Part shown: in pieces, positions 24,972 to 61,079 of the stretch
How the letters are laid out: each line of letters starts with the position of its first letter
How positions within the stretch are numbered: position 1 is the stretch's first letter
Assembly: GCA_964516975.1 (NCBI GenBank)
Contig: CAZFAS010000001.1
Span: 118,500 to 182,499, forward strand
DNA length: 64,000 bases
Direction: 5' to 3'
From: an uncultured Candidatus Saccharibacteria bacterium
GTDB lineage: Bacteria > Patescibacteriota > Minisyncoccia > Phycocordibacterales > Zambryskibacteraceae
Program-made: the position numbers and the translations under genes
Notes under the pieces: generated by a model
Told to the model about the DNA's origin: nothing
Seen by the model: the letters and a program-made list of their open reading frames with translations, nothing else
Databases searched by the model: none

Positions 24972-24990
24972 CGGGCCCTTTTCTATTTCT
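24953..24990. terminator. bidirectional rho-independent terminator
   Basis: GGGCCCGCTacctaGCGGGCCC + TTTTCTATTTCT between convergent genes. Confidence 0.65.
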
Positions 24991-27709
24991 GATACTTTTT
25001 CATTATCTCACCCTCTATTTCGTACCTATCCCTTCCGAACTCCTGATATGAAAGTCGCTTGATCGTCTCAACATCCACATCAGTCTTCGGCGGTGGTGGC
25101 ATTGCCTTCATATTAAACGGCTTTACCGGTTTTCCATTGGCAAGCATTTTTACAAACGCATTGTAATTATCGATGTTTATTATTTCTGAAACAGAAAATA
25201 CAGGCTCAAACTGTTTTACAAGATATTCTGCATCATCAACCCCTACTCGATATGAAATTATAGTACCCACATTTCCAAACACGGCATTCTTGATATTCTC
25301 ATCGAGCTGTCCGATGAACTGATGTGCGATATAGAGAGATAAACGATATTTTCTCGCCTCCGAAAGGATCGTTGCAATAGATGGAGTGGTAATATTCTGA
25401 AACTCATCTATATAGAGATAAAATGGGGGGAAATCTTTTCCGAGCATATCCACTCGTGAAAGTGACGCCATAAGTATCTTTCCAACCAAGATAAGACCGA
25501 TGAGGTTTGCATTGATGTCTCCGAGTCTTCCCTTCGAAAGATTCACGAGGAGGATTTTCTTATTATCCATAATATCGCGGAAGTTAAACGAAGATTTCTC
25601 CTGCGCGATAATCGGACGCATGATCTCATTTGCGAGGAATACATCGAACTTACTTGTGATATATGGCACGATATTTGCAAGAGCTCCTTCCCCGCCAGCT
25701 TTTTCTGCAACTTCATTCCAAAATTGTACGACGATCGGATTTCGACATCGCGATAATTTGAGCTGTCTAAATTCTTTATTTGCGAGCACACGAGAAACAT
25801 CGAGGAGCGTTGAACCCGACTCAGGGTCCTCGATCACGAGCATCGTCGCGTTTCTAAAATACTGTTCGAACATTGGCCCCATTGATTCTGGTACTGCTCC
25901 ATACAGTTTTTGGAAAATACTAAAAAGCTCATTCACTACAAAAGTTTTTTGCTCCGGAAAACGATAATCATACTCGAGCATATTGAGTGCCATCGGCCTA
26001 TCAATAAATGCTGGATCAAAATAGATAACATCTTTCATTCGCTCTGGTGGGACATGTGCTAATACATCCTGAACATCCGATCCATGCGGATCGATCATAC
26101 ATACACCATTACCACGTTCGATGTCCTGAATAATCATATTCTTAAGGAGTGTGGTCTTACCAGTACCTGTTTGTCCGATCGTGTATACATGGCGAAGTCT
26201 ATCTTCATCAGTCAAATACACCTTTGTATCTTGGCCGCGATATGAGTTCACTCCGATAAGGGTTCCAAGCTCAGGAAGCTCATGCGGTGCTGGGGCATAC
26301 CCACTCTTTGCTACCTTGAGCTGACTTGCTCCCTTGAGGGCACTTGTGTGGAAGTGGATAAGAGTAGTGAGTTCTTTAATATTGAGTGGGATAAAATCTG
26401 CCCAATCAAAAGCTCGAAATGCAAATGATCTTATAAACTTCTTCAGCTTTCCACCATTACTGATTCGTGAAAATCGAATACCATTACCCTGCGTCTCATC
26501 GAACTGATTAAAACTCGATTCAAGATCAGCTAAAATACTTTCCGCTCGGTTCTTATCACCGGCAGAAACTACGATCCGAATATTGATAGCACAAATAGGA
26601 CTGCTTAATTTTTTCTGAATTTTTTCTATTGCCTGAGTATCGACTTTCTTCTCTTCTTTTTTTTCATCTTTCTTAGTAGCGCCAAATATAGATTTAAATG
26701 TCTTACCGAGCTCTGTCACAAAAGAATTTTCAGCAGTTGCTTCCTTAGCAGACATGCCTTTTTCTATCTTTTTTATTGCTGATTCATATTTCTGCTTGTA
26801 CGTATCACCCACAGGTCCCATCATCACCTGAAGACATGCTCCCTCACCTTCCTTTTGAATCTTCGAAAAACTATTGAGGATTACATTGAGCGGATCATGA
26901 TCAAAAGACTCATATGTACGCATTTGAAATGCTGGATTTCCGTTCGAATACCCTACTGAACCAAGTGACACGCCTTCTTGGTTGAAGATATTATGATCAT
27001 CATTTTTCTCTGTAACTCGCGCATCATGAAAAATAGATAGGATTTGTTTTTCAAATAAATCCTTTCGTTCATCTGGTACCGCAACATAAAAAATAAACTC
27101 ATCACTACCATTACTATTTGCGATTTCAAGAGTAATATAATCTCGTTTATTATATTCATCACCAGAAATGGATGTCATACCGGCATAAAACTGCTCCATA
27201 CCAGAGATAAGCTCTTTTAACCCTCTTTGCTGTTCATCAGATCCTTGCGGAAGTACTACTTCATAAAGTGTCATGCGAAGTGCTCGTGAAAGTGGAGCTC
27301 TTGTGGGTAATCCTTTAACTTCAAAACCTTTTTTTACATACTGCACGAGAAATCGATGGAAATCATCTTCGACATGAACATCGCCAAGCTTTTCGATAAT
27401 AGCTAAAGTATTCTTTATCCCCTTTTGATTGAGCAAAATTAAAAGTTCATCCATTTTCTTGTCATGTGGTTCAGGAGAAAGATTGAGCGCAAGCGCATGG
27501 ATTGTGTCTTGTGTAAGCGCATGATGAGCATGCAAGATAGTATGAGGCTGTAAATTGTATTCTTTAAGTTTCTCTCCGATAACCTTATCCCGCGAAACTT
27601 CGTTTCCTGATTCACGGAGGAAACGTTCCTGTTTCAATACTTCATTTTTAATATGAGAAATTTCCTCTTCTTTTGTCCGAAGTGATTCCAATCTTGTTTC
27701 TGGTTCCAT
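24983..27709 (-). CDS. large P-loop ATPase of HerA/FtsK/TraD(VirD4)-like superfamily with ~480-aa N-terminal domain of unknown function
   Basis: Walker A GQTGTGKTT then MIDPHGSDV (HerA/AAA_10-like); Walker B ...YLYIDEFQN; C-terminal TraD/TraG-like region. Confidence 0.7.
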   Translation of the reverse strand: MEPETRLESLRTKEEEISHIKNEVLKQERFLRESGNEVSRDKVIGEKLKEYNLQPHTILHAHHALTQDTIHALALNLSPEPHDKKMDELLILLNQKGIKNTLAIIEKLGDVHVEDDFHRFLVQYVKKGFEVKGLPTRAPLSRALRMTLYEVVLPQGSDEQQRGLKELISGMEQFYAGMTSISGDEYNKRDYITLEIANSNGSDEFIFYVAVPDERKDLFEKQILSIFHDARVTEKNDDHNIFNQEGVSLGSVGYSNGNPAFQMRTYESFDHDPLNVILNSFSKIQKEGEGACLQVMMGPVGDTYKQKYESAIKKIEKGMSAKEATAENSFVTELGKTFKSIFGATKKDEKKEEKKVDTQAIEKIQKKLSSPICAINIRIVVSAGDKNRAESILADLESSFNQFDETQGNGIRFSRISNGGKLKKFIRSFAFRAFDWADFIPLNIKELTTLIHFHTSALKGASQLKVAKSGYAPAPHELPELGTLIGVNSYRGQDTKVYLTDEDRLRHVYTIGQTGTGKTTLLKNMIIQDIERGNGVCMIDPHGSDVQDVLAHVPPERMKDVIYFDPAFIDRPMALNMLEYDYRFPEQKTFVVNELFSIFQKLYGAVPESMGPMFEQYFRNATMLVIEDPESGSTLLDVSRVLANKEFRQLKLSRCRNPIVVQFWNEVAEKAGGEGALANIVPYITSKFDVFLANEIMRPIIAQEKSSFNFRDIMDNKKILLVNLSKGRLGDINANLIGLILVGKILMASLSRVDMLGKDFPPFYLYIDEFQNITTPSIATILSEARKYRLSLYIAHQFIGQLDENIKNAVFGNVGTIISYRVGVDDAEYLVKQFEPVFSVSEIINIDNYNAFVKMLANGKPVKPFNMKAMPPPPKTDVDVETIKRLSYQEFGRDRYEIEGEIMKKYQK

Positions 27710-28068: not shown

Positions 28069-28671
28069 ATGCCCGCAGATTTGAATGCGGGCATGATGCC
28101 CGACTTCATACTACCCAACACATTGCGTGAACTACGCGCAATGATCCCCGAAGATCGCTACCTCTCAATCGTTGAAGATGACCTCTCAGATGAATATTTG
28201 AGAGTAAAACTCAAGGAGCTCGAGTGGCTAGCCGAAGTTAGCAGTGATCCAATTCTGCTAACTATTCACTCTGAAGGTGGTCATCTCGGAAGAGCCAGGG
28301 ATATTTCAAGGTTCCTCAGAACAACAGAAGTACCAGTGATCGGTGTCGCAGCACGACATTGCTACTCAAGTGCCTTACTCATCCTACTTGGGTGCAAGTA
28401 CAGAGTAGCGAGCAGTAGTGCGACATTCCTCGTCCACAATCCTGTTGTGAGATTTGCTTTCGAAATCAATGGAAGTGTTACGAGAGCAAAGCTTCACACC
28501 CTTGTTGACTCTGCGTTTGATCATTTCGAGTCGGAGCAACGGGTAGTTCGTGATCTTGTCTCATCATGCTCGTTTCTTGAGCAAGATAAGGTGTTTGAAA
28601 TCATGAACAAAGGAGAAATACTTAGCGCTCAAACTGCATTTGAGTATGGCTTCCTCGATAAGGTGTACTAG
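28069..28671 (+). CDS. ClpP-family (S14-like) serine peptidase homologue
   Basis: ...ILLTIHSEGGHLG...VIGVAARHCYSSALLILLGCKYRVASSSATFLVHNP... aligns to ClpP Ser/His region; slightly GC-enriched. Confidence 0.6.
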   Translation: MPADLNAGMMPDFILPNTLRELRAMIPEDRYLSIVEDDLSDEYLRVKLKELEWLAEVSSDPILLTIHSEGGHLGRARDISRFLRTTEVPVIGVAARHCYSSALLILLGCKYRVASSSATFLVHNPVVRFAFEINGSVTRAKLHTLVDSAFDHFESEQRVVRDLVSSCSFLEQDKVFEIMNKGEILSAQTAFEYGFLDKVY

Positions 28672-32208: not shown

Positions 32209-32427
32209 CTAACAGTTCGGTGGCGAGAGAGCGAGCTGCTTCTCGGCCAAATCAAAGCCGAGATTGTAGGAAGCACTGCGTCCGTCTTCACGGGCGCAAT
32301 ACGCTGCAGCTATGAAACGCCCTGCGTAATACTCCCGCAGGGCAATCGTGAATGCCAAACCTTTTTCAACGGTCTCGGGACACCCGTTCAGATGCCCGAC
32401 CTCTTCCTCGCAGTACTTGCACTTCAT
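32209..32427 (-). CDS. small Cys-rich (zinc-ribbon-like) protein
   Basis: 72 aa, MKCKYCEEEVGHLNGCPE..., ~58% GC. Confidence 0.4.
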   Translation of the reverse strand: MKCKYCEEEVGHLNGCPETVEKGLAFTIALREYYAGRFIAAAYCAREDGRSASYNLGFDLAEKQLALSPPNC

Positions 32428-32562
32428 GTGCGCTCCAGGTTAAAGAACTGACAATATAGTAGCATATTATATACAAAATGTCAATCTACATTATCGTGGC
32501 TAATTACACTTTATAAAATCAAGTAGATTTTTTGCTATATTTTGCTATTCTTCATTCCACAT

Positions 32563-32610
32563 GGCCCTATCGTCTAACGGTCATGATTGGACTCTCAAGC
32601 GCTTAAGAGG
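32563..32610 (+). pseudogene. degenerate 5' fragment of a tRNA-Glu-like gene
   Basis: first 19 nt identical to tRNA-Glu at 32744, D and anticodon stems no longer pair. Confidence 0.45.
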
Positions 32611-32629
32611 GGTGAGAAGCGAACACTTG

Positions 32630-32720
32630 GAGCTTCGCAAGACCGGAGCGCGACGGCGCGAGGTATGGTCAGGAGCAAAGTCAGCAGACTTTGACTCATG
32701 ACCGATGAACCGGAATCGGG
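32630..32720 (+). repeat. GC-rich structured repeat E1
   Basis: ~80-nt similarity to 32880-32977 incl. CGCG-ACGG-CGCG hairpin and AAAGTC-agca-GACTTT stem. Confidence 0.5.
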
Positions 32721-32743
32721 TTTTAATAATTTATGTTTATATT

Positions 32744-32818
32744 GGCCCTATCGTCTAACGGTTAGGACAAGGCCTTCTCAAGGCTTAAATCGGGGTTCGA
32801 TTCCCCGTAGGGTCACCA
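32744..32818 (+). tRNA. tRNA-Glu (anticodon CUC), CCA encoded
   Basis: cloverleaf: acceptor GGCCCTA/TAGGGTC, D GTCT/GGAC, anticodon loop TTCTCAA, T arm CGGGG-TTCGATT-CCCCG, discriminator A. Confidence 0.85.
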
Positions 32819-32879
32819 AATATTACGAAGTAATATGTGTGATTTTTAAACACGCTGGGAGCTTGTTTAAAAAGAATCG

Positions 32880-32977
32880 AAAGCCGGAGCGCGACGGCGC
32901 GAGGCGGGGTCGCGAGCAAAGTTAGCAAACTTTGACTTGTGACCGAAGCGTACTCGCGTTTCCCCGTAGGGTCACCA
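32880..32977 (+). repeat. GC-rich structured repeat E2
   Basis: partner of E1; stem AAAGTT-agca-AACTTT shows compensatory C>T/G>A change relative to E1. Confidence 0.5.
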
Positions 32978-32995
32978 ATCGAAACCTTTTACATT
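32978..32995 (+). other. duplicated 3' end of tRNA (TTCCCCGTAGGGTCACCA), att-core-like
   Basis: 18 nt identical to 3' end of tRNA-Glu at 32801-32818. Confidence 0.5.
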
Positions 32996-32997
32996 TG

Positions 32998-33807
32998 CTA
33001 CTTCCTCCCCTTCACTATCCGAATAAAATCACGCATTGTTTGAGGGGCAAAATATCCCGGAAGATCATATGAATCTTCCCATGTATATAAAGTTTTATTA
33101 TGTGTGCCTCTCGCTGAAATATACCCCGCTTCATTTACTACCGTCATAATCTCTTTATTCATATCTCCAAAAGGATACGCAAAGCTTGTAACACGTGATC
33201 CGAGCTTTTTCTCAAGCAATTCTTTACTTCTTAAGATTTCCTCTCTCATCTCATCAGTATTCAACCTCGAAAGGAATGGGTGCGAAAGTGAGTGACTCCC
33301 AAACGACATACCTCCTGCCTTCATTTCTCGTATTTCATCCCAAGTTAGAAATCGGTAATCTTTTCCAATAGGATTTGTATATACGTAGAAAGTTGCAACT
33401 TGTCCGTACTGTTTAAGGAGTGGATATACACGTACATATTGATCCTGCCAACCGTCATCAAATGTAAGTGCAACCAATTTCTTTTCTGTAGTTGTGCCAA
33501 ATTGCAAATATTCTTCTAACTCACCCATAGTGATTGTTACATATCCATTATCACGAAGGTACCTTAGCTGTTCTTCAAATATTTCTGGTGGAACATTGTA
33601 TTGTATTTGTTCCTGCGTCTCTCCTTCACGGAGTGGATGTACCGAATGGTATACCAAAACCGGAATATCTAAAGGAAATAATTGACTTGCGGTTCGTGCA
33701 CTAGCTTTAATCTGAACTGGCAAATCAACTAAAAACGGATGCATGAGAAAAAAAGTGATTGCAAGTAATGAGCATTGTATAAGTACTGTAATCCTAGATT
33801 TATCCAT
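32998..33807 (-). CDS. polysaccharide deacetylase (NodB homology domain)
   Basis: signal/TM then ALTFDDGWQD..., HSLSHP motifs. Confidence 0.8.
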   Translation of the reverse strand: MDKSRITVLIQCSLLAITFFLMHPFLVDLPVQIKASARTASQLFPLDIPVLVYHSVHPLREGETQEQIQYNVPPEIFEEQLRYLRDNGYVTITMGELEEYLQFGTTTEKKLVALTFDDGWQDQYVRVYPLLKQYGQVATFYVYTNPIGKDYRFLTWDEIREMKAGGMSFGSHSLSHPFLSRLNTDEMREEILRSKELLEKKLGSRVTSFAYPFGDMNKEIMTVVNEAGYISARGTHNKTLYTWEDSYDLPGYFAPQTMRDFIRIVKGRK

Positions 33808-60467: not shown

Positions 60468-61027
60468 GTCGGAAAGTTCGTGGTATAATTGCTTGGTGTA
60501 TACCAAGAAAAAAAGATTAGAAAAATGAACTTACGCCGACCGTCGAGCATATATGGTAATGGCAGTAACAAGGAGAAGAAGAAAACTCCGTGAGATGGCC
60601 AGAGAACAAGCCGGCGGAAAATGTGCATTATGTGGCTACAAAAAATGTCAGAGGGCTTTAAGCTTTCATCACGTAAACCCTAAAAATAAGGATTTTGATC
60701 TTTCTTCAAGGGGTTTAACGAGATCGTGGGAACGTATTAAAAAGGAAATCGAAAAATGCGTTCTCTTGTGTGCAAATTGTCACATGGAAGTACATGAAGG
60801 CATTACGCAGCTTTCTATCAAAAGATAGATTGAAAAACGAGGTGAATTCGGGGAAACCCAATTATTGGGCAATCCCGAGCCAAGCTCTAATGAAAGTTGG
60901 AGAAGGTGTAGAGACTATCCTTTATGGAGTAGTGTCAAAAACTTGATACGAAGCGCCTCGATCCTAAGTTCCAGATTGGAATATGGATATGATATAGTCC
61001 ACGCTTCTAGCAATAGAAGAATCAGTG
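60468..61027 (+). mobile_element. group I intron (560 nt) with internal HNH homing-endonuclease ORF
   Basis: 5' exon ends in U, intron ends in G; conserved core elements P (AATTCGGGGAAA), Q (AATCCCGAGC), R (GTAGAGACTATCC), S (GATATAGTCCAC). Confidence 0.7.
60553..60828 (+). CDS. HNH endonuclease (intron-encoded)
   Basis: CxxC...HH..N...CxxCH zinc/HNH motif (CALCGY...SFHHVNPKNK...CANCHMEVH); extended -10 TGGTATAAT at 60477. Confidence 0.75.
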   Translation: MVMAVTRRRRKLREMAREQAGGKCALCGYKKCQRALSFHHVNPKNKDFDLSSRGLTRSWERIKKEIEKCVLLCANCHMEVHEGITQLSIKR

Positions 61028-61079
61028 TAAGCGATTGGTCGTAGGTTCGATCCCTACCTCCGGAGCATGCAAAAATCTT

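What the first reader, a model, noticed from the sequence alone, without database searches (positions are those of the whole stretch)
32560..33000. tRNA-Glu locus with partial tRNA duplicates and two covarying GC-rich structured repeats
An intact tRNA-Glu(CUC) lies at 32744-32818. About 180 nt upstream is a decayed copy of its 5' two-thirds (32563-32610); the first 19 nt are identical and the stems are broken. About 160 nt downstream is an exact copy of its last 18 nt, TTCCCCGTAGGGTCACCA (32978-32995), which is the classic att-core footprint of integrase-mediated insertion into a tRNA 3' end. Each partial copy is accompanied by one copy of a ~80-90-nt GC-rich element. E1 (32630-32720) and E2 (32880-32977) share CCGGAGCGCGACGGCGCGAGG and a stem that shows compensatory change: AAAGTC-agca-GACTTT in E1 versus AAAGTT-agca-AACTTT in E2. 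This points to a conserved RNA structure. Either these are scars of repeated integration and excision of a small mobile element at tRNA-Glu, or E1/E2 are a small structured RNA family associated with tRNA fragments.
Basis: seen in the sequence. Interest (0 to 1): 0.6.

Follow-up and report, generated by a model that had tools for sequence, protein, structure and literature searches.

The report
Structured repeat marking tRNA insertion junctions
The two GC-rich repeats beside this tRNA-Glu gene belong to an apparently undescribed family of about 110-base folded elements, found in many Patescibacteria (candidate phyla radiation, CPR) genomes, that sit exactly where small pieces of foreign DNA have been spliced into tRNA genes.

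Summary
E1 and E2 are not a local oddity. Their shared 21-mer occurs exactly in at least 119 GTDB species genomes, and about 117 of these are Patescibacteria or unlabelled MAGs. Each copy folds as a hairpin (hpX), then a short hairpin P1 with a tandem G.A motif and a GACG loop, then a 16-bp hairpin P2 with a bulged A. Covariation is very strong. Rfam has no match, IMG/VR has no copy, and I found no paper describing it. The element abuts tRNA-derived fragments at fixed points: T-loop 55/56, with the repeat running to the tRNA 3' end, or about position 25, with the repeat starting at tRNA +1. E2 plus the 18-mer is a 159-bp insertion at the tRNA-Glu 3' end, and E-free "empty" tRNA-Glu sites exist. 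Near-identical strains carry different cargo at this junction: a PD-T7-like defence gene, a 4.8-kb island and a 550-bp insert. E1 lies in a displaced, decaying 5' copy of the tRNA. No integrase lies nearby, and removing E never restores a tRNA. Best reading: the cis-acting folded module of a gene-less integrative element family that targets stable-RNA genes. The catalyst and the role of the fold are unknown.

The parts
32563..32613 (+). Displaced, decayed 5' copy of tRNA-Glu (positions 1 to about 54, ending in the T-stem 5' strand GGGGT). The D and anticodon stems are broken and 2 nt are deleted.
   Evidence: (D2, D4). It starts at tRNA position -1/+1, like other upstream copies in the family. 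In-silico removal of E does not restore a tRNA.
32614..32642 (+). E1 hpX: GAGAAGC-(11-nt loop GAACACTTGGA)-GCTTCGC, followed by the linker AAGA.
   Evidence: Fold. The same hairpin, with a covarying stem, is seen in L026, L028, L078, L082, L098, L049 and L013.
32643..32663 (+). E1 P1: the conserved 21-mer CCGGAGCGCGACGGCGCGAGG. It has a base helix, a bulged G, tandem G.A/A.G, a 4-bp stem and a GACG loop.
   Evidence: The base helix and the stem covary in diverged copies.
32667..32703 (+). E1 P2: a 16-bp hairpin with an AGCA loop and a bulged A on the 3' strand.
   Evidence: Covariance-model (CM) hit of 77.8 bits.
32703..32724 (+). E1 tail: CGAT (a T-loop remnant) followed by the small hairpin CCGgaatCGG and GTTTT, which looks like a terminator.
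   Evidence: It aligns with the hairpin GCGtactCGC after E2.
32744..32818 (+). Intact tRNA-Glu(CTC) with an encoded CCA.
32819..32883 (+). E2 module, left part: a terminator-like hairpin (ATATTACgaaGTAATAT), then the hpX equivalent (arms 32843-32856 and 32860-32873), then the linker GAATCGAAAG, which is complementary to the tRNA T-loop.
   Evidence: inverted repeats I3, I6, I14; direct repeat D5. Homologous arrangements occur in L014, L038 and L114.
32884..32904 (+). E2 P1: the conserved 21-mer.
32908..32944 (+). E2 P2 hairpin (AGCA loop, bulged A).
   Evidence: CM hit of 84.9 bits.
32945..32959 (+). Small extra hairpin GCGtactCGC, lying between P2 and the tRNA fragment.
   Evidence: It is present unchanged in strain L137.
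32960..32977 (+). Displaced tRNA-Glu 3' fragment (T-stem 3' strand to CCA). It is an exact 18-mer; the wider repeat spans 32957-32978. It is the right boundary of the 159-bp E2 insertion and an active junction for strain-specific cargo.
   Evidence: (D3).

Best explanation
E1 and E2 are two copies of a Patescibacteria-wide family of gene-less elements of about 110 nt, each built as hpX, then P1, then P2. They form the cis-acting core of small integrative modules that target stable-RNA genes (tRNA, tmRNA, 5S).

A module carries E directly next to a short tRNA segment. That segment is either T-loop position 56 through the 3' end (placed after P2), or position +1 to about 25 or 54 (placed before hpX). 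Recombination between that segment and the chromosomal tRNA gene inserts the module. The result is one intact tRNA plus a displaced partial copy that abuts E.

In this window:
- One such event at the 3' end produced tRNA, terminator, E2, then the 18-mer: a 159-bp insertion.
- A mirror-image event at the 5' side left the decaying 5' copy fused to E1.
- The tRNA fragment next to E2 still acts as a landing site. Sister strains carry different cargo there.

Shown: the family and its fold, the fixed junction positions, filled versus empty sites, strain polymorphism, and the absence of a recombinase in cis.

Inferred:
- Recombination is catalysed in trans, by a site-specific recombinase or by homology-driven, Campbell-type integration of incoming DNA.
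- The conserved fold on the tRNA-sense strand (as single-stranded DNA or as RNA) is what that machinery recognises.
- The stretch complementary to the fragment serves to present the tRNA segment as a duplex.
For: Family and fold:
About 117 of these are Patescibacteria or unlabelled MAGs.
- Several copies occur per genome and per 8-kb locus.
- P2 has 15 of 16 pairs with double changes, and a conserved G.U in 87 of 103 copies. Diverged copies also covary in P1, and 19 of the 21 predicted P1 and P2 pairs show compensatory changes.

Link to tRNAs:
- 68 of 117 copies lie within 200 nt of a tRNA or tmRNA gene on the same strand; 1 lies on the opposite strand.
- In 24 of 28 downstream copies the tRNA repeat starts at the last base of P2 (T-loop 55/56). 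In 20 of 28 it ends 0 to +3 nt from the tRNA 3' end.
- The cleanest upstream repeats start at tRNA -2 to -1 (6 of 13) and end at positions 24-25 (5 of 13).

Insertion status:
- E-free tRNA-Glu genes are followed directly by ATCGAAAC.
- L123 has a different P2 followed by about 1 kb that carries a PD-T7-1/5-like gene.
- L131 has 550 extra bp after the fragment.
- L137 (97% identical over the part of the contig that aligns with the window) has a 4.8-kb island after the fragment, and its copy of E2 is truncated inside P1.
- E modules are also found nested inside other E copies.

No protein in cis.
Against: - No recombinase is identified anywhere, so the catalytic step is entirely inferred.
- A 159-bp double-stranded circle is an awkward recombination substrate. 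The mini-modules may instead be immobile remnants left after loss of cargo.
- Exact conservation of a 21-mer across class-level lineages is unusual for selfish repeats. It would fit a cellular RNA with a conserved partner.
- The strand asymmetry of the closing stem is only modest: the tRNA-sense strand pairs better in 62 copies, the opposite strand in 36.
- Copies between housekeeping genes, with long closing stems unrelated to tRNA (L003, L007, L021, L035), do not fit a purely tRNA-directed mechanism.
- Next to 5S rRNA the element is antisense to the gene.
- No copy is found on viral contigs, and no free or autonomous form has been seen.
Confidence: 0.5

Rival explanations
1. E is a functional non-coding RNA module of Patescibacteria, co-transcribed with or processed from tRNA transcripts. 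P1, a k-turn-like tandem G.A hairpin, would bind a conserved protein. The closing stem made with the tRNA 3' fragment would mimic an acceptor/T-arm minihelix that RNase P, RNase Z or the CCA-adding enzyme could act on. Under this reading the association with insertion junctions is secondary: the RNA rides on the modules or is selected there.
For: - P1 sequence is extremely conserved across classes.
- Conserved G.U pairs and covariation lie on the tRNA-sense strand only.
- Orientation relative to tRNAs is 68 to 1.
- The closing stems pair the fragment with a complementary strand, forming a minihelix-like stack.
- E1 folds far better than shuffled controls, z = -4.2.
Against: - In most downstream copies an intrinsic-terminator-like hairpin with a T-run lies between the tRNA and P1/P2, so co-transcription would need read-through.
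- No promoter is predicted on the + strand anywhere in 32380-33060.
- The shared orientation follows automatically from the fixed order of E and the fragment, so it is not independent evidence for RNA.
- Copy number is variable, copies are nested and truncated, and strain breakpoints fall inside E.
- Next to 5S rRNA the element is antisense.
Confidence: 0.27
2. E is a folded single-strand transposon end, like the non-autonomous hairpin-only derivatives of IS200/IS605 (PATEs), or a folded attachment site like integron attC or the CTX phage attP. It would be moved by a Y1/HUH or tyrosine enzyme encoded elsewhere, acting on single-stranded DNA made during replication or DNA uptake.
For: - The hairpins have conserved extrahelical bases: a bulged A in P2 and a bulged G in P1.
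- The structure is conserved on one strand only.
- The left flank of precise insertions always ends in GT.
- The stretch complementary to the adjacent fragment would rebuild a duplex site from a single strand.
- No gene lies in cis.
- The modules are too small for easy double-strand circularisation.
Against: - No Y1/HUH transposase or integron integrase was found near any copy.
- IS200/IS605 elements do not duplicate 20-50 nt of their target.
- The attC core motifs were not looked for systematically, and none were seen by eye.
- This rival largely overlaps the best explanation and differs only in the catalyst.
Confidence: 0.12
3. E is a miniature self-splicing or self-cleaving ribozyme or intron that inserts into exposed tRNA loops. 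Several features recall group II domains 5 and 6: a 5' GUGAG, an AGC within a short hairpin, a 3-nt linker, and a bulged A 8 nt from the 3' end.
For: - The resemblance in layout, seen by eye.
- Insertion points lie in the T-loop at 55/56 and in the D-loop after G19/U20 in L029.
- Conserved junction nucleotides flanked by covarying helices are typical of small ribozymes.
Against: - There is no hit to Rfam Intron_gpII (RF00029) or to any ribozyme family, even at E <= 10.
- In-silico excision never restores a tRNA from an interrupted copy, and an intact tRNA always sits beside it.
- Next to 5S rRNA the element is antisense to the gene.
- Group II introns are reported absent from Patescibacteria (PMC13011429).
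- The element lacks any counterpart of domain 1.
Confidence: 0.06
4. The pattern is only a local tandem duplication of a tRNA-plus-spacer unit that later decayed, with no wider meaning.
For: The upstream unit (5' tRNA copy plus E1) and the downstream unit (tRNA plus E2) align along their length at 75% column identity.
Against: - The same element occurs in at least 119 other species next to many different tRNAs, with fixed junction positions.
- Filled and empty sites and strain polymorphism exist.
Confidence: 0.03

Closest known systems
Genomic islands integrated in tRNA and tmRNA genes by tyrosine integrases (the Islander-type pattern; T-loop sublocation; tycheposons of Prochlorococcus, bioRxiv 10.1101/2020.12.28.424599)
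   Same: - An intact tRNA plus a displaced partial copy act as direct repeats bounding the insert.
- The identity block runs from the crossover to the end of the tRNA.
- tmRNA is also a target.
- Inserts accrete in tandem, and cargo differs between strains and includes a defence gene.
- The insert supplies the terminator.
   Different: - No integrase lies in or near the inserts.
- The inserts can be as small as 159 bp with no gene.
- A conserved, covarying folded element sits exactly at the junction.
- Some events displace the 5' part of the tRNA (junction near position 25 or 54).
- A stretch complementary to the fragment precedes the element.
Small structured selfish repeats: Rickettsia palindromic elements, REP/REPIN, Correia and other MITEs, and the GC clusters and double-hairpin elements of fungal mitochondria
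   Same: - Short (about 100 nt), GC-rich in an AT-rich genome, and multi-copy.
- Strongly folded and gene-less.
- Found nested and inside RNA genes.
- Presumably mobilised in trans.
   Different: - There are no fixed terminal inverted repeats and no short target-site duplication.
- The closing stem differs from copy to copy and matches the local tRNA.
- The core sequence is conserved across class-level lineages rather than being species-specific.
- There is a strong preference for tRNA ends.
Folded single-strand recombination sites: integron attC and the CTX phage attP
   Same: - Structure rather than sequence is conserved in one hairpin.
- There are conserved extrahelical bases.
- Only one strand is the relevant one.
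- The recombination site is presented as an intramolecular duplex.
- Gene-less or single-gene cassettes sit next to a platform.
   Different: - No integron integrase and no attI.
- No R/L core motifs recognised.
- The target is a tRNA gene rather than attI or dif.
- P1 is conserved in sequence.
- None of this has been tested biochemically.
Group II intron domains 5 and 6
   Same: A short AGC-containing hairpin, a 3-nt linker, then a hairpin with a bulged A 8 nt from its 3' end; many copies begin with GUGAG.
   Different: - No Rfam RF00029 match.
- No domain 1.
- Only about 110 nt long.
- Excision does not restore the host gene.
- Found antisense to 5S rRNA.

Membership tests
tRNA (tRNA-Glu, anticodon CUC) | A cloverleaf called by independent tRNA detectors, with a CTC anticodon. 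| tested here: met
   ARAGORN; Rfam RF00005 at 60.4 bits against a gathering score of 29.
Integrase-type island in a tRNA gene | An intact tRNA and a displaced fragment act as direct repeats bounding the insert, and the identity runs to the end of the tRNA. | tested here: met
   for the window. Across the family, the repeat ends 0 to +3 nt from the tRNA 3' end in 20 of 28 cases.
Integrase-type island in a tRNA gene | Filled and empty sites, or variable content at the junction, between related genomes. | tested here: met
   Empty sites in L138-L140. Strain variants L123, L131 and L137.
Integrase-type island in a tRNA gene | A tyrosine (or serine) integrase gene inside the insert, next to the att site. 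| tested here: not met
   - The inserts of 159 bp have no ORF.
- Cargo proteins have no significant Pfam or PHROG hit and none to a recombinase family.
- No recurrent neighbour family.
- A Xer-like gene lies nearby in only 2 of about 140 loci searched and not in the window.
MITE / REP / RPE-type selfish repeat | Short, gene-less, multi-copy and dispersed within genomes. | tested here: met
   up to 5 copies in 8 kb, and at least 4 contigs of one MAG.
MITE / REP / RPE-type selfish repeat | Element-intrinsic terminal inverted repeats and a short fixed-length target-site duplication. | tested here: not met
   The closing stem varies in length and sequence and matches the local tRNA. The duplicated flanks are 10-44 nt tRNA segments.
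Group II intron (domains 5/6; Rfam RF00029) | A match to the D5/D6 covariance model. | tested here: not met
   cmscan of 32430-33010 at E <= 10 lists no RF00029 hit.
Intron of any kind in a tRNA gene | Removing the element restores a complete, foldable tRNA. | tested here: not met
   91,181 in-silico excisions were tried. tRNAs were restored only trivially, from the adjacent intact gene, and never from an interrupted copy. L029 could not be tested because its contig ends.
Any Rfam 15 family | A match at or near the gathering score. | tested here: not met
   Only the tRNA itself matches.
Kink-turn (for P1) | A canonical stem, a 3-nt bulge, tandem sheared G.A/A.G pairs, then a non-canonical stem. 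| tested here: inconclusive
   The tandem G.A/A.G positions and both stems are conserved or covary, but the bulge is a single G. Whether the G.A pairs are sheared cannot be tested here.
Guide-RNA mobile systems (IS110 bridge RNA; IS200/IS605 TnpB omega RNA) | The RNA is encoded at the end of an element that also encodes its recombinase or nuclease. | tested here: not met
   No such gene lies next to any copy.
Integron attC | R''/L''-L'/R' core motifs (RYYYAAC .. GTTRRRY), and an integron integrase in the genome. | not tested
   No systematic search was made. None was noticed by eye.

The most novel reading that the evidence does not exclude
E is the recognition fold of a new kind of integration system in Patescibacteria. 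A single-stranded nucleic acid (incoming single-stranded DNA, or an RNA) folds so that a tRNA-derived segment is presented next to a conserved three-hairpin scaffold. This fold directs recombinase-in-trans, or even RNA-catalysed or RNA-guided, insertion at the tRNA elbow: T-loop 55/56 and the D-loop/D-stem. The tRNA fragment next to E would then serve as a reusable landing pad for gene cassettes, including defence genes. In function this would be an integron-like platform built on tRNA genes.
Probability: 0.25. Interest if true: 0.9.

Novelty: new variant of a known kind. Interest (0 to 1): 0.72.

Why it matters
Patescibacteria make up a large share of bacterial diversity. They have tiny genomes, and how they exchange genes is poorly understood.

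- **A new structured family.** About 110 nt, with a 21-nt invariant core and textbook covariation, it occurs in well over a hundred species, has no Rfam family, and sits precisely at tRNA insertion junctions. It is a new target for RNA and mobile-DNA biology.
- **A practical annotation marker.** It flags integration hotspots and strain-variable cargo, including defence genes, in metagenome-assembled genomes that usually lack recognisable integrases.
- **A possible new mechanism.** If the fold itself directs integration, this would be a new mechanism for site-specific insertion into tRNA genes.
- **A possible new RNA.** If it is instead a cellular RNA, it is a new conserved RNA linked to tRNA genes in a lineage with unusual RNA biology (introns in tRNA and rRNA genes).

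Tried and rejected
- **Phage origin of the window.** blastn against phage records matched only the tRNA. The neighbours are dcw-cluster and pyrimidine genes of a Patescibacteria-like chromosome.
- **Known RNA family.** Rfam gave nothing for E, either at gathering scores or at E <= 10.
- **Virus-borne element.** The exact 21-mer and a relaxed pattern were both absent from IMG/VR.
- **An associated protein.** All-against-all clustering of 1,210 ORFs around 119 loci gave only housekeeping families such as EF-Tu, PilM, RecG and Mur ligase. Neighbours of the non-tRNA copies are housekeeping genes too. tblastn with a Xer-like integrase hit only 2 loci.
- **Intron hypothesis.** Exhaustive in-silico excision followed by ARAGORN restored no interrupted tRNA.
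- **Group II D5/D6 resemblance.** Kept only as a lead, since there is no model match.
- **Strand test on the closing stem.** The tRNA-sense strand pairs better in 62 copies and the opposite strand in 36. This is too weak to be decisive.
- **Identity of the cargo.** The 841-, 363-, 178-, 114- and 98-aa proteins had no significant hit in Pfam, PADLOC or PHROGs. Only the 316-aa protein matched, to PD-T7-1 and PD-T7-5 and to one PHROG family of unknown function.
- **Literature.** Six searches found no description of the element. The nearest paper concerns group I introns in Patescibacteria tRNA genes (PMC13011429) and does not cover this element.
Full report
**1. What is in the window**

The window is a chromosome segment of a Patescibacteria-like (CPR) bacterium. 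Around the feature lie mraW, a PBP transpeptidase, a Mur ligase, pyrE and pyrF. GC content is about 40%.

ARAGORN and Rfam find a single tRNA in 64 kb, tRNA-Glu(CTC) at 32744-32818 on the + strand.
- A decayed 5' copy of this tRNA lies at 32563-32613. Its first 19 bases are identical; after a 2-nt deletion the match resumes and runs to the T-stem strand GGGGT.
- An exact copy of the last 18 bases lies at 32960-32977.
- Two GC-rich elements share the 21-mer CCGGAGCGCGACGGCGCGAGG, at 32643-32663 and 32884-32904.

None of these repeats is expected by chance: shuffles gave zero.

**2. E1 and E2 belong to a large family**

By record title these are Saccharibacteria, Paceibacterota/Parcubacteria, Nomura-, Kaiser-, Yonath-, Taylor-, Vogel-, Zambryskii- and Tagabacteria, Minisyncoccia, and unlabelled MAGs. 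The exceptions are one MAG labelled Gammaproteobacteria that carries a full element (L021) and one GC-rich chance match in a Gemmatimonadales MAG (L097).

A covariance model built from 103 copies finds about 170 copies in these loci. Up to 5 copies occur in one 8-kb stretch (L048), and copies lie on at least 4 contigs of one MAG. It finds only E1 and E2 in the window.

The element is absent from IMG/VR viral contigs, both as the exact 21-mer and as a relaxed pattern. It has no Rfam match even at E <= 10. Six literature searches found no description. The closest paper, on group I introns in Patescibacteria tRNA genes (PMC13011429), concerns something else.

**3. Anatomy and evidence for the fold**

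The element has three parts in order.
- **hpX**: a variable hairpin. In one subfamily, which includes E1, it reads GUGAG-stem-GAAUACUUGGA-stem-GCAAGR. In copies downstream of a tRNA it is usually an intrinsic-terminator-like hairpin.
- **P1**: a 3-bp base helix, a bulged G, tandem G.A/A.G, a 4-5-bp stem and a GACG loop.
- **P2**: reached after a 3-nt linker (YGG). It is a 16-bp hairpin with an AGCA-type loop and a bulged A on the 3' strand, 8 nt from the end.

On 103 copies, 15 of the 16 P2 pairs show changes on both sides, and 97% of cells are paired against 80% in shuffles and below 51% when the partner is slid. One G.U pair is conserved in 87 of 103 copies.

In copies that lack the exact 21-mer, P1 covaries as well. 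The pair at alignment columns 7-29 takes all four Watson-Crick forms. RNAalifold independently recovers P1 and P2, with 19 of 21 pairs showing compensatory changes.

The conserved G.U pairs mean the fold belongs to the strand that is sense to the tRNA. That strand could fold as RNA or as single-stranded DNA; the sequence data cannot distinguish these. E1 folds better than its shuffles, z = -4.2, and E2 at z = -2.4.

**4. Relation to tRNAs**

Of 117 exact-core copies, 68 lie within 200 nt of a tRNA or tmRNA gene on the same strand: 52 downstream and 16 upstream. One lies on the opposite strand. The tRNAs cover most identities, and tmRNA is included.

Three arrangements recur.
- **Downstream type (like E2):** intact tRNA, terminator-like hairpin, a stretch complementary to the tRNA T-loop and 3' end (6-28 nt), RAAG, P1, P2, then a sense copy of the tRNA from T-loop position 56 to the 3' end.
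- **Upstream type:** tRNA positions 1 to about 25, hpX-P1-P2, a piece of the anticodon arm, a spacer, then the intact tRNA.
- **T-loop type (like E1, L098 and L049):** a partial tRNA copy ending at T54, hpX-P1-P2, then CGAxTCC and onward.

The junctions are fixed:
- In 24 of 28 downstream cases the repeat begins at the last base of P2.
- In 20 of 28 it ends 0 to +3 nt from the tRNA 3' end.
- The cleanest upstream repeats start at -2 to -1 (6 of 13) and end at positions 24-25 (5 of 13).

Identity blocks that run from a fixed internal point exactly to the end of the tRNA are the signature of an inserted DNA that carries its own partial tRNA copy to rebuild the gene. A random tandem duplication would not produce them.

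The stretch that pairs with the fragment is its perfect reverse complement. It is not a copy of the tRNA's own 5' strands: in L031 it pairs A with the U of the tRNA's G.U wobble pairs.

**5. The element is an insertion and the locus is a hotspot**

*Empty sites.* tRNA-Glu genes of other organisms (L138, L139, L140) are followed directly by ATCGAAAC, the sequence that follows the 18-mer in the window. These loci carry no E at all. E2 with one copy of the repeat is therefore a 159-bp insertion at the tRNA 3' end; the repeat spacing is 159 nt.

*Strain variants.* Contigs encoding proteins identical or 99% identical to the window's neighbours show four versions of this intergenic region.
- The window type, 570 nt, is the commonest.
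- L123 is identical up to P1. It then has a different P2, a degenerate fragment, about 1 kb carrying a 316-aa PD-T7-1/PD-T7-5-like gene, a second degenerate fragment, and the same right flank.
- L131 is window-like through the 18-mer, then has 550 extra bp with a 114-aa ORF.
- L137 is 97% identical over 3.8 kb. It has tRNA-Glu, a different terminator, a variant E, and then E2 truncated exactly inside P1 (...atttc|GAGGCGGGGTCGCGAG). Next come the same P2, small hairpin and 18-mer, followed by a 4.8-kb island of four unknown proteins ending ...GCTCCCA|ATCGAAAC.

All breakpoints fall at the tRNA fragment or inside the E core.

**6. What it is not**

- *Not an intron.* Exhaustive in-silico excision never restores a tRNA from an interrupted copy, and an intact gene is always adjacent. 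Next to 5S rRNA (L002, L028) the element lies in a partial 5S copy in antisense orientation.
- *Not a classical integrase island.* No integrase or other recombinase lies in the window region, in the cargo, or recurrently near copies.
- *Not a classical MITE.* There are no fixed terminal inverted repeats and no short target duplication.
- *Not shown to be group II-like.* The resemblance to domains 5/6 (GUGAG start, AGC hairpin, 3-nt linker, bulged A 8 nt from the end) comes from reading the sequences and is not supported by the RF00029 model.

**7. Most likely mechanism**

*Shown.* This is a conserved, folded, gene-less element family. It sits at fixed positions between tRNA-derived segments. 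It is inserted relative to empty sites. It is associated with ongoing gain and loss of cargo at the window's locus.

*Inferred.* A module consisting of E plus a tRNA segment recombines with the chromosomal tRNA gene through that segment.
- Exchange through a 3' segment gives the downstream type (E2).
- Exchange through a 5' segment gives the upstream or T-loop type (E1), where the module must also bring the promoter-proximal part.
- The catalyst acts in trans.
- The fold, including the stem that presents the tRNA segment as a duplex, is the recognition feature. The nearest analogies are integron attC and the CTX phage attP.
- The fragment next to E then serves as a landing site for further cassettes.

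I put about 0.5 on this reading. I put about 0.27 on E being primarily a cellular, tRNA-linked RNA with a conserved protein partner, which would better explain the cross-class conservation of P1. The rest is split between a transposon end or attachment site acting as folded single-stranded DNA, a ribozyme or intron, and plain duplication.

**8. Unexplained**

- The native flank CCAATCGAAAC after E-less tRNA-Glu genes resembles the linker GAATCGAAAG in front of P1 and is complementary to the T-loop (repeat I13).
- Copies between housekeeping genes have long closing stems unrelated to tRNA (L003, L007, L021, L035).
- Modules of hpX plus a P1-like hairpin are nested between P1 and P2 (L043, L089, L107, L111, L119).
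- Why is the 21-mer invariant across such deep lineages?

**9. Verdict**

The element is best filed as a new variant of tRNA-targeting integrative DNA that carries a novel structured module. There is a real chance that the module embodies a new mechanism or a new RNA class.

Noticed in passing
window 60768-61060: A group I intron (Rfam RF00028, 64 bits) is followed directly by what looks like the 3' half of a tRNA (..GGTCGTAGGTTCGATCCCTACCTCCGGAGCA). ARAGORN did not call this tRNA. The sequence just upstream reads like the end of an HNH-type endonuclease ORF. This matches the intron-split tRNA genes reported for Patescibacteria (PMC13011429).
   Followed up: partly
window 24983-27709 (-) and 28069-28671 (+): A 908-aa protein with type IV secretion coupling-protein domains (TraG/VirD4/TrwB-like) lies next to a ClpP-like protease, about 5 kb from the tRNA locus. 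This may be part of a conjugative or DNA-transfer apparatus.
   Followed up: no
window 32977-32986; L138 4158-4168; L139 826-836: The flank AATCGAAAC that follows the tRNA-Glu 3' end in E-free genomes, and follows the 18-mer in the window, nearly repeats the linker GAATCGAAAG in front of P1 of E2. It is complementary to the T-loop GGTTCGATT. I have no explanation for this.
   Followed up: partly
L002 838-1047; L028 999-1201: The element also lies beside 5S rRNA genes, inside a partial duplicate of the 5S gene, but antisense to the 5S gene.
   Followed up: partly
L123 1512-2462: The strain-specific cargo next to E2 is a 316-aa protein matching the PADLOC candidate defence families PD-T7-1 and PD-T7-5 (E about 1e-10) and PHROG 8571.
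   Followed up: partly
L137 8221-13000: A 4.8-kb strain-specific island of four proteins (178, 841, 363 and 98 aa) has no significant Pfam, PADLOC or PHROG match. It is inserted at the CCA of the displaced tRNA fragment.
   Followed up: partly
L027, L034, L045, L070, L109, L111, L112 (near their E copies): A second short repeated hairpin, CUCC-UGUAA-GGAG (or its reverse complement), recurs near or inside E copies. These genomes may carry several modular structured repeats.
   Followed up: no
L029 2480-2602: Here the element sits precisely inside the D-loop of a tRNA-Glu copy (..AACGGT|E|TAGGACACGG), with no base lost or gained. The contig ends before the rest can be seen. Its P2 is nearly identical to that of E1.
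   Followed up: partly
window 32209-32427 (-): The divergent neighbour is a 72-aa cysteine-rich ORF with no Pfam hit. It is conserved with identical sequence in at least 23 contigs read (the index lists it in 37 blocks of the assembly collection).
   Followed up: no
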